A DNA stretch of 64,000 bases from assembly GCA_964016885.1 (NCBI GenBank), contig OZ024742.1, positions 130,324,001-130,388,000 of the forward strand. Direction: 5' to 3'. Source of the DNA: Eledone cirrhosa. Lineage: Eukaryota. This document shows, piece after piece, positions 4,955 to 63,578 of this stretch. Positions within the stretch are counted from its first letter, which is position 1. Every line of letters begins with the position of its first letter. Position numbers and translations under genes: made by a program. The notes beneath the pieces are model-generated. The model made no database searches and was not told the origin of the DNA. It worked only from the letters and a program-made list of their open reading frames with translations.

Positions 4955-5333
4955 GAATAAGTAAAAGCGAAGTAGTTTCAGATGTTCAAGTCCTTTAATA
5001 ATAATGCTGTGATATATATTTCAATGACGACACTGGCCACACTGGTCTGTGTGCGAGTCTCGTGACATCATCAGACAGCTTGTTACATAATAAGGTTATG
5101 TTTCCGAGGCAATCCAAGTTGAATCGACATGGGAACGGACGAAGTGTGTGCTTTTGGGTTCTTCATCCGTTCCCCCGTGAGTACCAATTCACCCCCACCT
5201 GTCTGCGCAGGCGCATGTCCGAAGGAAGTAGACCATTAGCTACCGCAGATTTCAACGAAATTCGCTTAGTCAGTTCACCCTCTCAGCCAAACAATGACCC
5301 ATTTAGGCCTGTACCATAGTTTACTGCTACCCG
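4955..5333 (-). mobile_element. Penelope-like pLTR-type non-coding element in (TA)n/(GA)n, family B
   Basis: Reverse-complement copy of 22779-23115; contains a hammerhead fold. Confidence 0.8.
5006..5079 (-). ncRNA. Type I hammerhead ribozyme (family B)
   Basis: gctgt CTGATGA [long stem II] GAAA tatata TC acagc on the reverse strand. Confidence 0.8.
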
Positions 5334-5943
5334 TATATATATATATATATATATATATATATATATATATATATATATATATATATATATATATATTTCC
5401 AGCTACCTCATTGTTTCCCTCGTCTGACCCTCTAGTATTCCTTTTCTCACTTACATTCGCTGGGGCAAGACGTGTCTATTCACTCGCCCACACGCTCTTG
5501 AACTTAAGTTCTCTTATCACTGTGGTCTTGGATTTTCTTACCTAAAGTTGTTCGTACATTGTTCCGTTTGTTATTTTTTTTCGCTGTTTTCTCTTTTCTT
5601 CCTTTTTCCCTTCTATTTTCCTTCCCTCCCTCCTCCGTTTTCCCAATAACTTACCCAGTTATTGAACGCTCTGGGCGGTAGATATATTGTCTTTAAAGCA
5701 TGGAGATATCCGAGACCCCCCAGTAGACAACTGATGAAGAAACCCCCCTCCCGTTCTTGCTTTCTTCTTATTCTCACTCCATTTTAAGCTATATATATAT
5801 ATATATATATATATATGTATATATATATATATATATATATATATATATATATATATATATATGTATATATATATATATGTATATATATATATGTGTGTAT
5901 ATATATATATATATATATATATATATATACATATATACACACA

Positions 5944-6000
5944 CAGGGTGTCCCCCAAAATGTATGCACACTTCAAGAATATTCTAATAAGTATGTGGTA
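5944..6000 (+). mobile_element. Tc1/mariner terminal fragment
   Basis: CAGGGTGTCCCCCAAAATGTATGCACA resembles the TIR of the MITE at 12177. Confidence 0.6.
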
Positions 6001-6466
6001 TGTGTATAATTTCTGATGATTTAGTTTTAAAGAATGAAAACTAATGATAGAATAAAAAATATATTTTTCAAAATGAGACTCCTGCGAGTATGTGGCCTTG
6101 AGTTATAGCTAATTTAGCTTTTAGGTCAGTCCACCACTGTTTGTGATAATGGAACAGTCCGATCTATGAGTCATTTACTGATTCTTCTATAATTGTTGAA
6201 TTCTTGTTGTTGTCTAGGTAGGTAGTTTGAGTAATAATACAAACAAGATGCAGCGTTGCATAAAATGGTGGAATGATTTGATATAGACAGGAAATAATGG
6301 TTTTTAATTTAGGAAGAAGGCCAGCGATTTCGGGGAAAGAGCAAGGTCAATTGAATCAACCTCAATATTTTTACTGGTATAAAGTCTGCGGGGTGCGTTT
6401 TATCATGTTACCATCATGAGTGCCGCTCTGTAAATCTCTGATTATTATCTGATTACAATCCTAAGC

Positions 6467-6970
6467 GTGGACTCTTTCGGCCTCCACCCGCTTTCTTGTC
6501 GCCACAGTGCCGACCGCCTTCCACGCCATGCTGCCCTCAACGAGGTCATAAAGCATGGCTTGGACGCTGCAGGCTTCCCTTCCAAACTCGAGCCGGTGGG
6601 GCTGTACCGAGGGGACGGCAAAAGGCCAGATGGCATGACCATCTTCCCGTTCCGCGGTGGCAAACCCCTCGTCTGGGATGCCACTTGCACCGACAGTTTC
6701 TCCAGCCGCAACCCGGTGTAGTCGGGCTGAGGAGGCCAAACTCTTCGAATACCGGTCGCTCTCCGACAGGTTTGAGGTTTTACCCTTGGCAGTGGAGACT
6801 TCTGGTGTCATCAGTCCTAGGGATACCGCTCTACTCACCACCATAGGCGCTGAGCTGGCCAGCCTCGGGTGTGAGCCTCCCGAGCTGGAATAGCTTTTCC
6901 AGCGAATCTCCCTTGCCGTACTCCGGGGAAACGCCTTCTCCATTCTGTCTGCCGGGGCTGTGGGGAGGCC
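6467..6970 (+). mobile_element. 5'-truncated CRE-clade non-LTR retrotransposon (restriction-like endonuclease C-terminus)
   Basis: HPLSC..RHAALN..LEP..KRPDG..WDATC..AEEAK..LAVETSG..FQRISLAVLRGNA; 28-bp direct repeat at 6439-6466 and 7227-7254. Confidence 0.8.
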
Positions 6971-8022
6971 ACCAATATGATTGATTGACTGACTTGTCAT
7001 TTTATCAGTCAGATGTTTTTAGGCATCACCCAGTTAATTATGATTCATTCTGTGCTGTAGATATAATTATACTGTGTATAGATGAGTTTGTATAAAATTG
7101 ATTCAAAGTTGATCATTCAATTACATAAATAATCTCATTGTATCAATTAACACTCACTCCTATATTAATTTATTTGCTATTGAACTATGTTGTTGCTCTA
7201 ATGGTAAATAAAAATATTCATCTCAGTGATTATTATCTGATTACAATCCTAAGCAAGATGACAAGTAATCACGTAGACTGCAGGTTTCACTTCAAAATTT
7301 CCCTCTCTTAGAAGAATGTCATAACAACAGCTCGGCGTCCTTCATTCCTAGTGGACATACTGCGTGTCCTGACACCAACCGGGAGGGTTTTTGAGTTCTC
7401 GTCCCTCGCACAGATGGGTTGTCATAATCATGATTAAGGAGTCTTATCTACCCCGGTTTCGAAAGCAGAGTGACCCTTCTCCTAGACGGATTGCCACCCA
7501 AGTCTCTCTCTCTCTCTCCCCCTCACTCACTCTCTCTATCTGTGCCAGGCCACCTCGCATCAACAGAAGTTTGGTAAATACATTTAAATAATACTTTTGC
7601 AAGCAAACACTCATACACATCACACCTGATATACAGCATCACACAATTCAACTGTGGTTAGTTGTTCTTCATGTATTGTCGTATAACTTCTTCAACGAAA
7701 GTTATATTTAGTAAATTAGTAACATAGCGGCTTTGTGTTATTGTGGTCGATATATTTTATTTCTTATGTGATCAAGGTAAATCACTTACCCAAGGATTCA
7801 TCATCATCATCATCGTCATCATAACGAACACTTATTTACTTGCACACCTGTATTCTCTGCTCACACTGTATCAAACACAGCGATCTTTCGCCTACATTCT
7901 ACACAACAGTGACCATACAACTAAGCAACCCAAGTGAGTACACACAGCAACCGAATCAACACCACAACTCACCACCATCCAGTTCCAGCATCAATAACAC
8001 TTGAAGCAGTTAAGTAAAATAA

Positions 8023-61544: not shown

Positions 61545-61736
61545 CAAGGGATGGCTGAAAAATTCATTGGCTGACCAAGATACTAACATGGAATGACCAA
61601 ATCAGGTTTACTTTTCAAAATAGTCCCTGGAAAGAGTTGCAGTTATTAATGATTAGACATTAATGCATGCAATTAATTCATAGCTCTTGTATCACTTCTT
61701 CATAGTCAGCCTATGAACCTTTTAGCCCACCCTCTG
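61545..61736. mobile_element. Mariner-derived MITE
   Basis: Imperfect TIRs AGGGATGGCTGAAAAATTCATTGGCTGAC / GTCAGCCTATGAACCTTTTAGCCCACCCT. Confidence 0.7.
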
Positions 61737-61803
61737 GTATGTATGTATGTATATATATATATATATATATATATATATATATATATATATATATATATAT
61801 ATA

Positions 61804-62280
61804 GTTATACTTTGGGAGGGTCATGTTGCCAATAAGAAACACACGCACCAGTTGCTTTCACTCCAATTTATTATAAATTAAATTATAAATTTAAAAATTG
61901 ATAAATTTCCGGTTGGTTGGGTGGTTCCACAACCGGACGGTTGTTCATATATTGTCAAAGTTCTTTCGTCACACAGAAAAACAAGATGGCGTAGGACAGA
62001 ACAAAGGAGAGGCACAAAACAAAGAAAAGAATCCCCAGTCACTGAAGAGGTCACAGAATGTGTGATGAAAGAACTTTGACAATATATGAACAACCGTCCG
62101 GTTGTGGAACCAACCAACCAACCGGGAATTTATAAATTTTTAAATTTATAATTTAATTTATAATAAATTGGAGTGAAAGCAACTTGTGCGTGTGTTTCTT
62201 ATTGGCAACATGACCCTCCCAAAGTATAACAATATCGGTTTCAACACACGTTTTCAGATAAAGAATCTTGCTAAACAAAT
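61804..62280. mobile_element. Fold-back element, family H (arms 61804-61975 and 62059-62230)
   Basis: 172-bp inverted arms between (TA)n tracts. Confidence 0.9.
62038..62080 (+). ncRNA. Type I hammerhead (family H)
   Basis: gtca CTGAAGA g gtcaca gaatg tgtgat GAAA gaac TT tgac. Confidence 0.8.
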
Positions 62281-62687
62281 ATATATATATATATATATAT
62301 ATATATTTATTAAAATAACAGATTAAAGTTTAAGCAAAGAATCGCTGCTTTCACCCTTAACGGGATCTTCTGAAACTAACAAAGTCAATCTGTAAACGCA
62401 GAACTGGATATTTCAAAAAACGTTGCAACCGGAGGAAGACAGGAAGACGATACTTTGGTTCATGGTGACGTTCGCTAGCAAAGAACGGGAAAAAACGAAT
62501 AATACGTCATATAGGAAAAGAGTCAGGACCCCAACGGCTGAGCTCCGGCCATTTTGACAAACCTAGCTGTCGAAATGGCCGTCGGGGTCCTGACTCTTTT
62601 CCTATATATATATATATATATATATATATATATATATATATATATATATATATATATATATATATATATATATATATATATATATAT

Positions 62688-63578
62688 AAAAACAAATAAC
62701 GAAACGAAATTAAATTTCGTTTCGTTTGTAACTCACTTTTGTATGACTGACGCTTAAACAATTAAGTTAAAAATGTACATCTACATATGTATACTGAAAT
62801 ACTAGTATGCATATGAATACACACACGTATACATATGTAGATGTACCAAGTCTTTCACTGGTTACTTTACTGTGAGTATCCAGCTATTCTGTATGTAAAC
62901 ACACAGACAAACCGGTTTTTAGAGTCATACTGGTTTTTGAGGAAACACCTTTCCTCTATTCTCCAGAAAGCCAGACAAGGAATATTGAACTAGTTTCGTT
63001 GTTGTTACAACTCATCAGCAATATTTACCTATCTACCGGCCTTTCTGGAGAATCGTAAAAGCACATATCGTTATATGCTTTTTCTATGAAAATTAGTAGT
63101 GGGCAGACTAATTTGCATAGAGTGTGAGTACGTACCGGTTCAACGGAGACGATAAAAACAAATAACGAAACGAAATTTAATTTCGTTTCGTTTGTAACTC
63201 ACTTTTGTACTCACACTCTATGCAAATTAGTCTGCCCACTACTAATTTTCATAGAAAAAGCATATAACGATATGTGCTTTTACGATTCTCCAGAAAGGCC
63301 GGTAGATAGGTAAATATTGCTGATGAGTTGTAACAACAACGAAACTAGTTCAATATTCCTTGTCTGGCTTTCTGGAGAATAGAGGAAAGGTGTTTCCTCA
63401 AAAACCAGTATGACTCTAAAAACCGGTTTGTCTGTGTGTTTACATACAGAATAGCTGGATACTCACAGTAAAGTAACCAGTGAAAGACTTGGTACATCTA
63501 CATATGTATACGTGTGTGTATTCATATGCATACTAGTATTTCAGTATACATATGTAGATGTACATTTTTAACTTAATT
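62688..63578. mobile_element. Fold-back element, family D2: 372-bp arms (62760-63131, 63207-63578), 75-bp spacer
   Basis: Reverse-complement arms; the spacer repeats the terminal 62688-62743 segment. Confidence 0.92.
63313..63357 (+). ncRNA. Type I hammerhead (family D2); mirror copy at 62981-63025 on minus
   Basis: aatattg CTGATGA gttg taacaa caac GAAA ctag TT caatatt. Confidence 0.9.

What the first reader, a model, noticed from the sequence alone, without database searches (positions are those of the whole stretch)
5006..63357. About ten distinct hammerhead ribozyme families hidden in (TA)n-embedded non-coding elements
Seen: type I hammerhead folds (stem I - CTGANGA - stem II - GAAA - stem III - UH - stem I') at 5006-5079(-), 11181-11241(-), 11530-11576, 12795-12889 (both strands), 16910-16974, 22989-23062, 26455-26520(-), 33493/33739, 34266-34312, 55222/55345, 57747/58130, 58513-58621(-), 62038-62080 and 62981/63313, plus partial copies. 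Stem sequences differ completely between families while core and pairing are kept. Established: Penelope-like elements carry minimal hammerheads in their pLTRs, and Naiads favour (AT)n targets. Inference: this is a large, diverse, mostly non-autonomous population of ribozyme-bearing retroelements, roughly one per 3 kb, that would normally be masked as simple repeat.
Basis: partly seen in the sequence, partly recalled or inferred. Interest (0 to 1): 0.9.

Follow-up and report, generated by a model that had tools for sequence, protein, structure and literature searches.

The report
Hammerhead-tipped Penelope ends and retrozyme arrays
The hammerhead ribozyme motifs are real and mark the 3' ends of protein-coding Penelope-like retrotransposons and of non-coding tandem 'retrozyme' repeats, and both kinds show the same two-ended, back-to-back insertion pattern, which suggests the non-coding repeats are likely copied by the Penelope enzyme.

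Summary
Observation confirmed. My type I descriptor finds 17 of the 19 listed motifs at the stated coordinates, plus one more: 18 hits against 0.1 in shuffles. Stems covary between subfamilies.

There are nine families. Four (C, E, F, I) are truncated 3' ends of protein-coding Penelope-like elements (PLEs): two Hydra-clade, two Neptune/Nematis-type. Five (A, B, D, G, H) are non-coding tandem units of 0.47-1.3 kb, i.e. non-LTR retrozymes. Exact patterns give 68,664 genomic matches; sampling suggests about 1.8e5 motifs.

Corrections: these are not Naiads; most matches are ends of coding PLEs; one per 3 kb is local (genome about one per 16 kb); Tandem Repeats Finder masks none of the 18.

The added result: four non-coding families insert head-to-head in (TA)n with one short and one long 3' end in 32 of 32 resolved pairs, the PLE 'tail' signature. 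In some loci neither arm can be a copy of the other. This favours two priming events by a PLE enzyme on a circular or multimeric RNA. Cleavage and expression were not shown. Known kind, new host catalogue, useful mechanistic evidence.

The parts
4955..5326 (-). Family D copy (non-coding, about 1.3-kb tandem unit elsewhere); hammerhead 5006-5079, predicted cut after 5011; stops at the short 3' end
11059..11268 (-). Family C (Hydra-clade PLE end), long-ended arm; hammerhead 11181-11241
11502..11625 (+). Family C short-ended arm, head-to-head with the previous one; hammerhead 11530-11576 with shortened stem II; a SINE-like repeat and a foldback lie between the arms
12701..12912 (.). Family E (second Hydra-clade PLE end) foldback pair: long arm on -, short arm on +; - motif 12795-12841; + motif lacks U16.1
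14287..14352 (+).
14692..15837 (+). 5'-truncated Hydra-clade PLE reading frame (RT C-terminal part, linker, GIY-YIG endonuclease), stop codon at 15648-15650
16890..17110 (+). 3' pseudo-LTR of that PLE, hammerhead 16910-16974, long 3' end running into (AC)n/(AT)n
18010..18164 (+). Family E end, core eroded, long 3' end
22779..23121 (+). Family D copy; hammerhead 22989-23062 with a stem II mismatch; short 3' end into (TA)n
26111..26409 (+). Family C end with a deletion in the 3' strand of stem I (core at 26216)
26411..26539 (-). Family C second subfamily, hammerhead 26455-26520, short 3' end
33226..34108 (.). Family B retrozyme head-to-head pair: short arm 33226-33600(-), long arm 33600-34108(+); canonical-type hammerheads 33493-33537 and 33739-33783; units of about 466-540 nt elsewhere
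34266..34398 (+). Family E end truncated at stem I, hammerhead 34266-34312, long 3' end
55102..55565 (.). Family F (Neptune/Nematis-type PLE, 4.2 kb when full) foldback pair: short arm on -, long arm on +; hammerheads 55222-55260 and 55345-55383
57553..58303 (.). Family G retrozyme pair (481-nt unit): long arm 57553-57886(-), short arm 57883-58303(+); hammerheads 57748-57826 and 58132-58210
58364..59212 (-). Family H, about one 843-nt non-coding unit; hammerhead 58513-58621, helix III palindrome broken by one change in this copy
61804..62278 (.). Family I (Neptune/Nematis-type PLE end) pair: short arm 61804-61975(-) with half a motif, long arm 61970-62278(+), hammerhead 62038-62080
62689..63578 (.). 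Family A retrozyme pair (467-nt unit): long arm 62689-63209(-), just over one unit; short arm 63208-63578(+); canonical-type hammerheads 62981-63025 and 63313-63357

Best explanation
The motifs are type I hammerheads at the 3' ends of four protein-coding Penelope-like element (PLE) families and of five non-coding tandem-unit families (retrozymes), and both kinds were likely inserted into (TA)n by a PLE RT-endonuclease that primes twice, once from each nicked strand. Shown by sequence: the motifs, their covariation, the coding partners of C, E, F and I, the tandem units of A, B, D, G and H, two discrete 3' ends in eight of the nine families, and head-to-head pairs with one short and one long end. 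Inferred steps: (1) tandem copies are transcribed. (2) Neighbouring hammerheads pair through the self-complementary helix III segment and cut as dimers; family E could also cut as a monomer. (3) Monomers would be ligated to circles. (4) A PLE protein dimer nicks both strands of (TA)n and starts cDNA at two sites 55-105 nt apart on the RNA. (5) Each cDNA runs for a few dozen bases to a dozen units. (6) The two cDNA ends are joined, leaving a back-to-back insertion. Most products are short, so the genome fills with 3' stubs that keep the hammerhead.
For: Descriptor against shuffles and decoy cores. Compensatory changes: 10 of 20 pairs in 12 C-type sequences and 7 of 21 in 6 A/B sequences; slid controls fall to 30-59% paired. 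Helix III segment self-complementary in 27 of 36 motif types against 6.9 expected, scored without a palindrome bonus; cofolding favours the duplex for 8 of 9 segments. Coding partners: C with open frames of 689-743 aa and a hammerhead upstream of the frame; E with a 758-aa open frame starting in the pseudo-LTR; F a 4.2-kb unit with a hammerhead at both ends; I downstream of RT and GIY-YIG frames. Tandem units: A 467 nt, B 466-540, G 481, D about 1,320, H 843. Short-plus-long ends, hand count: A 12 of 12, B 4 of 4, G 10 of 10, D 6 of 6, C 3 of 3, E 6 of 6, I 9 of 10, F 7 of 13. In L022 and L023 neither arm contains the other. Arms share the same variant in A (1.2 against 11.1 differences between loci) and B (2.0 against 17.3). 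Both end types abut (TA)n in short-read contigs (loose ends). Frangieh 2024 (PMC11167929): a PLE protein nicks and extends both strands and starts at two internal sites that delimit the tail.
Against: No cleavage, transcription or circle was shown; no RNA run was listed. The non-coding units show no blastn similarity to the coding pseudo-LTRs beyond low-complexity matches, so no enzyme is assigned to A, B or G; a shared tail motif links only D and H to the Hydra families, and only 2 of 49 E copies match the strict pattern. F fits the two-end rule in only 7 of 13 pairs; I has one exception; family A locus L010 has an inverted arm ending elsewhere. Arm identity is weak for D (8.1 against 12.5) and absent for G (7.4 against 8.3, confounded by windows that cross the junction). 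No head-to-head pair was seen in 16 H loci. No listed short-read contig bridges a head-to-head junction. B, D, E and F have U-U at 10.1-11.1 rather than the usual G-C; family I has no palindrome. Li 2026 found cleavage in only 1 of 9 frog retrozyme dimers, and Frangieh found cleavage dispensable for insertion in vitro.
Confidence: 0.72

Rival explanations
1. Same elements, but the inverted arm is a snap-back copy of a single cDNA (one priming event), trimmed at a second endonuclease site.
For: Arms are nearly identical in A and B; some pairs have no spacer (55302/55303, 12842). Craig 2021 ascribes the tail to endonuclease resolution of the intermediate.
Against: In L022 and L023 each arm holds contiguous unit sequence that the other lacks; the short-ended arm is the longer one in L014, L022, L023 and L026. 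Two start sites are seen in vitro.
Confidence: 0.12
2. The tandem families are satellites born from single PLE ends and expanded in place by unequal crossing-over (discussed by Li 2026); no circular RNA is involved.
For: Units within one array are about 99% alike; no RNA evidence here; a closed 466-nt cycle in one run's contigs fits tandem DNA as well as a circle.
Against: Thousands of dispersed arrays each end at one of two fixed unit positions in (TA)n; single arms exceed one unit (62689-63209); both arms of a pair can be multimeric (7+13, 11+11); units fold far more stably than shuffles as circles (A -151 against -95 +/- 5; B -152 against -105 +/- 6; G -115 against -98 +/- 7).
Confidence: 0.1
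3. The elements are MITE-like DNA transposons whose terminal inverted repeats happen to hold hammerhead-like sequence.
For: Long inverted repeats in TA context.
Against: Junctions and arm lengths differ at every locus, the two ends are unequal, and the same ends cap RT/GIY-YIG frames.
Confidence: 0.02
4. The inverted pairs are library or assembly artefacts (fold-back chimeras), or the motifs are chance matches in AT-rich DNA.
For: Some arms are 100% identical; no junction-bridging short-read contig was listed.
Against: Shuffle and decoy controls near zero; reversed-pattern controls 0 in all ten pattern searches; fixed unequal ends; older pairs have diverged arms; both end types appear in short-read contigs.
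Confidence: 0.04

Closest known systems
Hydra-clade PLEs (Craig et al. 2021, PMC8557442; Hydra-1_Obim is listed for an octopus in its supplement)
   Same: Families C and E: single frame of about 700-760 aa, RW motif, DKT, CxCx5C linker, no CCHH, CxxC and CxH around the catalytic E/N, C-terminal GIY-YIG, (TA)n targets, hammerhead in the pseudo-LTR.
   Different: Here at least 16,223 and 14,467 motif copies with many subfamilies; tails of 65-100 nt rather than 30-40; E has a 4-bp helix III that could fold as a monomer. Identity to Hydra-1_Obim was not tested.
Neptune / Nematis PLEs
   Same: Families F and I: C-terminal GIY-YIG with CCHH and a Cx4CxxC linker; F has DKG and an upstream frame offset from the RT frame; inverted 5'-truncated copies.
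   Different: The clade was not resolved by a tree; family I helix III is not palindromic.
Metazoan non-LTR retrozymes (Cervera and de la Pena 2020, PMC7229834; Li et al. 2026, bioRxiv 10.64898/2026.07.22.740005)
   Same: Families A, B, D, G, H: non-coding low-GC tandem units, each with a type I hammerhead; A and B have the canonical bulged stem I and short loop 2; coexist with PLEs.
   Different: Units are longer than the 150-450 nt reported (467-540, 481, 843, about 1,320 nt); A, B, D and G show head-to-head arrays with unequal ends in (TA)n, which I did not find in the passages read; circles and cleavage untested here.
Minimal PLE hammerheads (Cervera and de la Pena 2014, PMC4209133)
   Same: Many sequence families per genome, palindromic helix III, mostly solitary motifs from truncated PLEs, opposite-strand pairs 100-700 bp apart.
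   Different: U-U at 10.1-11.1 in four families, a recurring C-C mismatch in stem II (C, D), and an estimated load of about 1.8e5 motifs against thousands reported there.
Naiad PLEs
   Same: (TA)n preference, inverted copies, tails.
   Different: Naiads have an N-terminal endonuclease and lack canonical hammerheads; neither fits here.

Membership tests
Type I hammerhead ribozyme | Conserved core with stems I and II and a UH cut site, above chance | tested here: met
   18 hits against mean 0.1 in 50 shuffles
Type I hammerhead ribozyme | Compensatory base changes in the stems | tested here: met
   the sequences were chosen among descriptor or pattern hits, so pairing percentages lean high
Type I hammerhead ribozyme | Rfam model at gathering score | tested here: not met
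   HH9 38.6 of 52 bits for family A; 0 matches in 6 loci
Type I hammerhead ribozyme | Mg2+-dependent self-cleavage | not testable with these tools
   bench test needed
Dimer-type (minimal) PLE hammerhead | Short self-complementary helix III / loop 3 | tested here: met
   27 of 36 types against 6.9 expected; family I is an exception
Hydra-clade PLE (families C, E) | C-terminal GIY-YIG, DKT, RW(K), CxCx5C linker, no CCHH, CxxC and CxH | tested here: met
   motifs read in the frames against the description; the third residue of the RWK motif is R or C here
Hydra-clade PLE (families C, E) | Hammerhead in the pseudo-LTR and (TA)n target | tested here: met
Hydra-clade PLE (families C, E) | RT phylogeny within the Hydra clade | not tested
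   no labelled reference set; one search gave 1,199 mostly unnamed relatives, the listed ones at 39-54% identity
Neptune or Nematis PLE (families F, I) | C-terminal GIY-YIG with CCHH and CX2-5CxxC linker | tested here: met
Neptune or Nematis PLE (families F, I) | Placement in one of the two clades by tree | not tested
   no references on hand
Naiad PLE | N-terminal endonuclease | tested here: not met
Naiad PLE | No canonical hammerhead | tested here: not met
Metazoan non-LTR retrozyme (A, B, D, G, H) | Tandem units each with a type I hammerhead | tested here: met
   H rests on two tandem loci of 16
Metazoan non-LTR retrozyme (A, B, D, G, H) | No coding capacity | tested here: met
   no tblastn match of four PLE proteins to A, B, D, G references; no qualifying frame of 80 aa in the D unit; H loci matched only flanking elements
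Metazoan non-LTR retrozyme (A, B, D, G, H) | Unit of about 150-450 nt, low GC | tested here: inconclusive
   GC 36% for A, B, G; units are 467-1,320 nt, above the reported range
Metazoan non-LTR retrozyme (A, B, D, G, H) | Accumulates as circular RNA | not testable with these tools
   no RNA run listed; the closed cycle in run X4 is ambiguous
PLE insertion signature | Inverted 5'-truncated copy plus tail at one end only | tested here: met
   for A, B, C, D, E, G, I; partial for F; not seen in H

The most novel reading that the evidence does not exclude
Metazoan retrozymes in this genome are mobilised by PLE proteins through twin priming on one circular RNA: two RT active sites start 55-105 nt apart, each rolls round the circle, and the result is a bidirectional array with unequal ends. 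D and H ride on Hydra-clade proteins through a shared tail motif. With 1-3 x 10^5 motifs this would be one of the most hammerhead-rich genomes known, and the 467-nt unit A plus the open 758-aa frame would be a minimal system to test both retrozyme mobilisation and PLE second-strand synthesis.
Probability: 0.5. Interest if true: 0.65.

Novelty: new member of a known kind. Interest (0 to 1): 0.45.

Why it matters
Which enzyme moves animal retrozymes is open: Cervera 2020 names PLEs as a strong candidate, and Li 2026 adds co-occurrence and sequence evidence in frogs and leaves the mechanism open. Here the non-coding families carry the PLE integration footprint itself, with ends mapped to a few bases, so the question becomes testable with one short RNA and one protein. 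The same arrays bear on how PLEs make inverted copies. For annotation: stubs of this kind occur about every 16 kb, lie below Rfam thresholds, and their inverted form could be filed as MITEs. The hammerheads, Hydra PLEs in octopus, retrozymes in molluscs and the tail are each already published.

Tried and rejected
First strict descriptor found only 8 sites because it demanded a 10.1-11.1 pair and a 2-bp helix III; replaced. DNA search of the own genome with family A found nothing because common words are skipped; patterns were used instead. Rfam by E-value is swamped by miRNA matches to hairpins and microsatellites. Pfam misses the window frame and L111. Naiad, MITE and artefact readings rejected as above. 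blastn found no ancestry link between non-coding units and coding pseudo-LTRs (the H reference in that call came out empty and H was redone). No RNA holder listed: no evidence on expression either way. Short-read contigs did not list a piece bridging the junctions: inconclusive. A planned probe-based automatic tally of short and long ends was not run, so the tallies are hand counts; three pairs with an outer end outside the fetched DNA or unresolved (one B, two D) were left out. One search failed on a script error and was redone. Earlier scan notes: none for this genome. Literature searches returned no paper on hammerheads or retrozymes in cephalopods; a 2026 octopus repeat annotation does not contain the words hammerhead or ribozyme in its main text. 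The library lacks most subscription papers and Repbase/Dfam, and the Li 2026 supplements were not seen.

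
Full report
Setting. The window is G000:C3:130324001-130388000 of a 3.0-Gb animal genome. It is AT-rich, full of (TA)n, LINE and mariner fragments. I take the host to be an octopod from the recalled look of its commonest short repeat and the genome size; no call names it.

Observation. The listed sites read as described. 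Fifty block-wise dinucleotide shuffles give mean 0.1, max 2; five decoy cores give 0 or 1 each. The misses are degenerate family members (22989, stem II mismatch; + strand copy at 12847, U16.1 lost). Stems covary between subfamilies: in 12 C-type sequences 96.6% of cells pair and 10 of 20 pairs change on both sides; in 6 A/B sequences 92.9% pair and 7 of 21 change on both sides. These sets were picked from descriptor or pattern hits, so the percentages lean high. The helix III segment is self-complementary in 27 of 36 motif types against 6.9 expected, the mark of hammerheads that cut as dimers (PMC4209133; review PMC6765202). Rfam reaches only family A, below threshold.

Abundance. Exact patterns in the own genome match 5,132 (A), 11,199 (B), 16,223 (C), 1,237 (D), 14,467 (E), 5,173 (F), 82 (G), 455 (H) and 14,696 (I) places; reversed patterns give 0 each. 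Thirty-nine unselected 10-kb stretches hold 26 hits, 24 scoring 8 or more. That extrapolates to about 184,000 motifs (Poisson 118,000-274,000; bootstrap 100,000-284,000), one per 16 kb. The window is about four times denser and its 40 kb of flanks have none. All 278 fetched loci (1.3 Mb, biased to my queries and partly overlapping) fall into 39 motif clusters, a few of them mutated copies of others. 37 of 40 motifs have (TA)5 within 350 nt downstream against 26% of random positions, and Tandem Repeats Finder masks none of the 18.

Four families are ends of coding elements. The 16910 motif lies 1.1 kb behind a 5'-truncated RT/GIY-YIG frame at 14692-15837 with one stop. Relatives number 75,958 first-look candidates, with open frames of 689-743 aa and the family C hammerhead also upstream of the frame. 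They show the Hydra-clade marks described by Craig 2021: DKT, an RW motif, a CxCx5C linker, no CCHH, CxxC and CxH. Family E heads and tails a second such element with an open 758-aa frame, 39% identical to the first. Family F bounds a 4.2-kb unit with an upstream frame, RT with DKG, a Cx4CxxC linker and GIY-YIG with CCHH; family I follows a more distant frame of the same build. All have the endonuclease at the C-terminus, so none is a Naiad; Naiads also lack canonical hammerheads and are remnants in cephalopods. A Hydra family is already listed for an octopus.

Five families are non-coding tandem units. A repeats at 467 nt in arrays of up to 13 units per arm, B at 466-540, G at 481, D at about 1,320, H at 843 (two of 16 loci). 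None matches four PLE proteins. A, B and G are 36% GC and fold as circles well below shuffles. A and B share a canonical design with a bulged, extended stem I. These meet the sequence definition of metazoan non-LTR retrozymes (PMC7229834), with longer units than reported.

Insertion anatomy. Eight of the nine families have two discrete 3' ends: offsets from the cut of about 230 and 304 in A, 251 and 300-310 in B, 96 and 199 in G, 56-64 and 132-139 in D, 50-58 and 133-151 in C, 15-28 and 87-94 in E, 129 and 190 in F, and two ends about 55 nt apart in I. H showed only one. In head-to-head pairs one arm ends short and the other long: by hand count A 12 of 12, B 4 of 4, G 10 of 10, D 6 of 6, C 3 of 3, E 6 of 6, I 9 of 10, F 7 of 13. 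One B and two D pairs were unresolved and left out; F's tail is low-complexity and six pairs do not fit; one A locus with a half motif (L010) ends elsewhere. Three apparently single A insertions carry a tiny inverted short-end stub (L007, L027, L030). Junctions differ at every locus. The short-ended arm can be the longer one, and in L022 and L023 neither arm contains the other, which a snap-back copy cannot give. Arms share the same variant in A and B, less clearly in F and D, and not measurably in G; gene conversion between arms could also do this. Short-read contigs show both end types against (TA)n but list no piece across a junction. A short two-box motif just past the short end is shared by Hydra C and by non-coding D and H (17 of 44 D, 11 of 40 and 4 of 16 C, 3 of 9 H copies; 0 in A, B, G, I; only 2 of 49 E copies match the strict pattern though the E reference has it).

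Mechanism. Craig 2021 describes the inverted 5'-truncated copy and a tail at one end for PLEs. Frangieh 2024 shows a PLE protein, predicted to be a dimer, nicking and extending both strands and starting at two internal RNA sites that delimit the tail. The simplest reading is that the same happens here on PLE RNA and on retrozyme RNA: two primers, one per strand of (TA)n, two start sites, two cDNAs joined head to head. More-than-unit arms need a multimeric or circular template. Dimeric cleavage and ligation would supply circles. Transcription, cleavage, circles and the enzyme assignment are inferred; no RNA run was listed. Against activity: unusual U-U pairs at 10.1-11.1, low rates for minimal PLE hammerheads, and cleavage in 1 of 9 frog dimers.

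What was read. PMC8557442: passages, section 11 whole, supplement rows. PMC4209133: parts 1-2 of 4. PMC7229834: passages. bioRxiv 10.64898/2026.07.22.740005: parts 1 and 3 of 5 and passages, supplements not seen. PMC11167929, PMC6765202, PMC13282606: passages. Searches gave no paper on cephalopod hammerheads or on PLE-type tails in retrozymes; the library is partial.

Verdict. Real and abundant, but of known kinds: PLE hammerheads and non-LTR retrozymes in a host group where I found them undescribed. The part worth following is the PLE integration footprint on the non-coding families. Interest 0.45.

Noticed in passing
window 14023(-) and 60251(-): Hammerhead core with a 4-bp stem II and a palindromic helix III but no stem I partner, followed by a C-rich run; 396 exact matches in the genome, all 14 fetched copies also lack a clear stem I. 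Possibly a disabled or trans-acting form.
   Followed up: partly
window 11656-11806, 17820-17886, 34125-34267, 53915-54115, 62509-62607: Very common short foldback family with short and long ends and the Hydra-type tail motif but no hammerhead in the pieces seen; 39 distinct copies in fetched loci. Likely ends of another Hydra-type element.
   Followed up: partly
window 14496-14668, 57252-57465, 62279-62374: Another two-ended family in (TA)n without a complete hammerhead core; 17 copies in fetched loci.
   Followed up: partly
window 27884-28147, 63765-63926, 10253-10510, 59694-59785, 23168-23306: Older, diverged foldback elements; 10253-10510 resembles family I, the others are unassigned.
   Followed up: no
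window 24540-25172(+): Exon of a SAM-dependent methyltransferase gene (Pfam Methyltransf_11); no next exon was found in the window by motif, so downstream elements may lie in its intron.
   Followed up: partly
window 3954-4436(+); 21053-22798(-); 29611-30621(-); 40220-41404(-); 51263-53349(+): Mariner-type transposase fragment and several LINE RT fragments.
   Followed up: no
L114-L117 (40 kb flanking the window): Almost no (TA)n (1 per 10 kb against 8-10) and no hammerheads; hits per stretch correlate with (TA)n count across 39 stretches (rho 0.47), so the elements cluster in TA-rich zones.
   Followed up: partly
run X4 laid on window 62690-63155: A single 496-nt contig closes on itself as one 466-nt family A unit at low depth in a run labelled as another organism; tandem DNA, a circle or carry-over would all fit.
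   Followed up: no
L152, L240, L250, L128, L050, L012 and others: About 20 further hammerhead families with their own palindromic helix III turned up as by-catch.
   Followed up: no
window 2264-2774, 30825-31153, 28240-28346: Tandem arrays of 86, 110 and 54 nt without hammerheads; the last two are pieces of the common SINE-like repeat.
   Followed up: no
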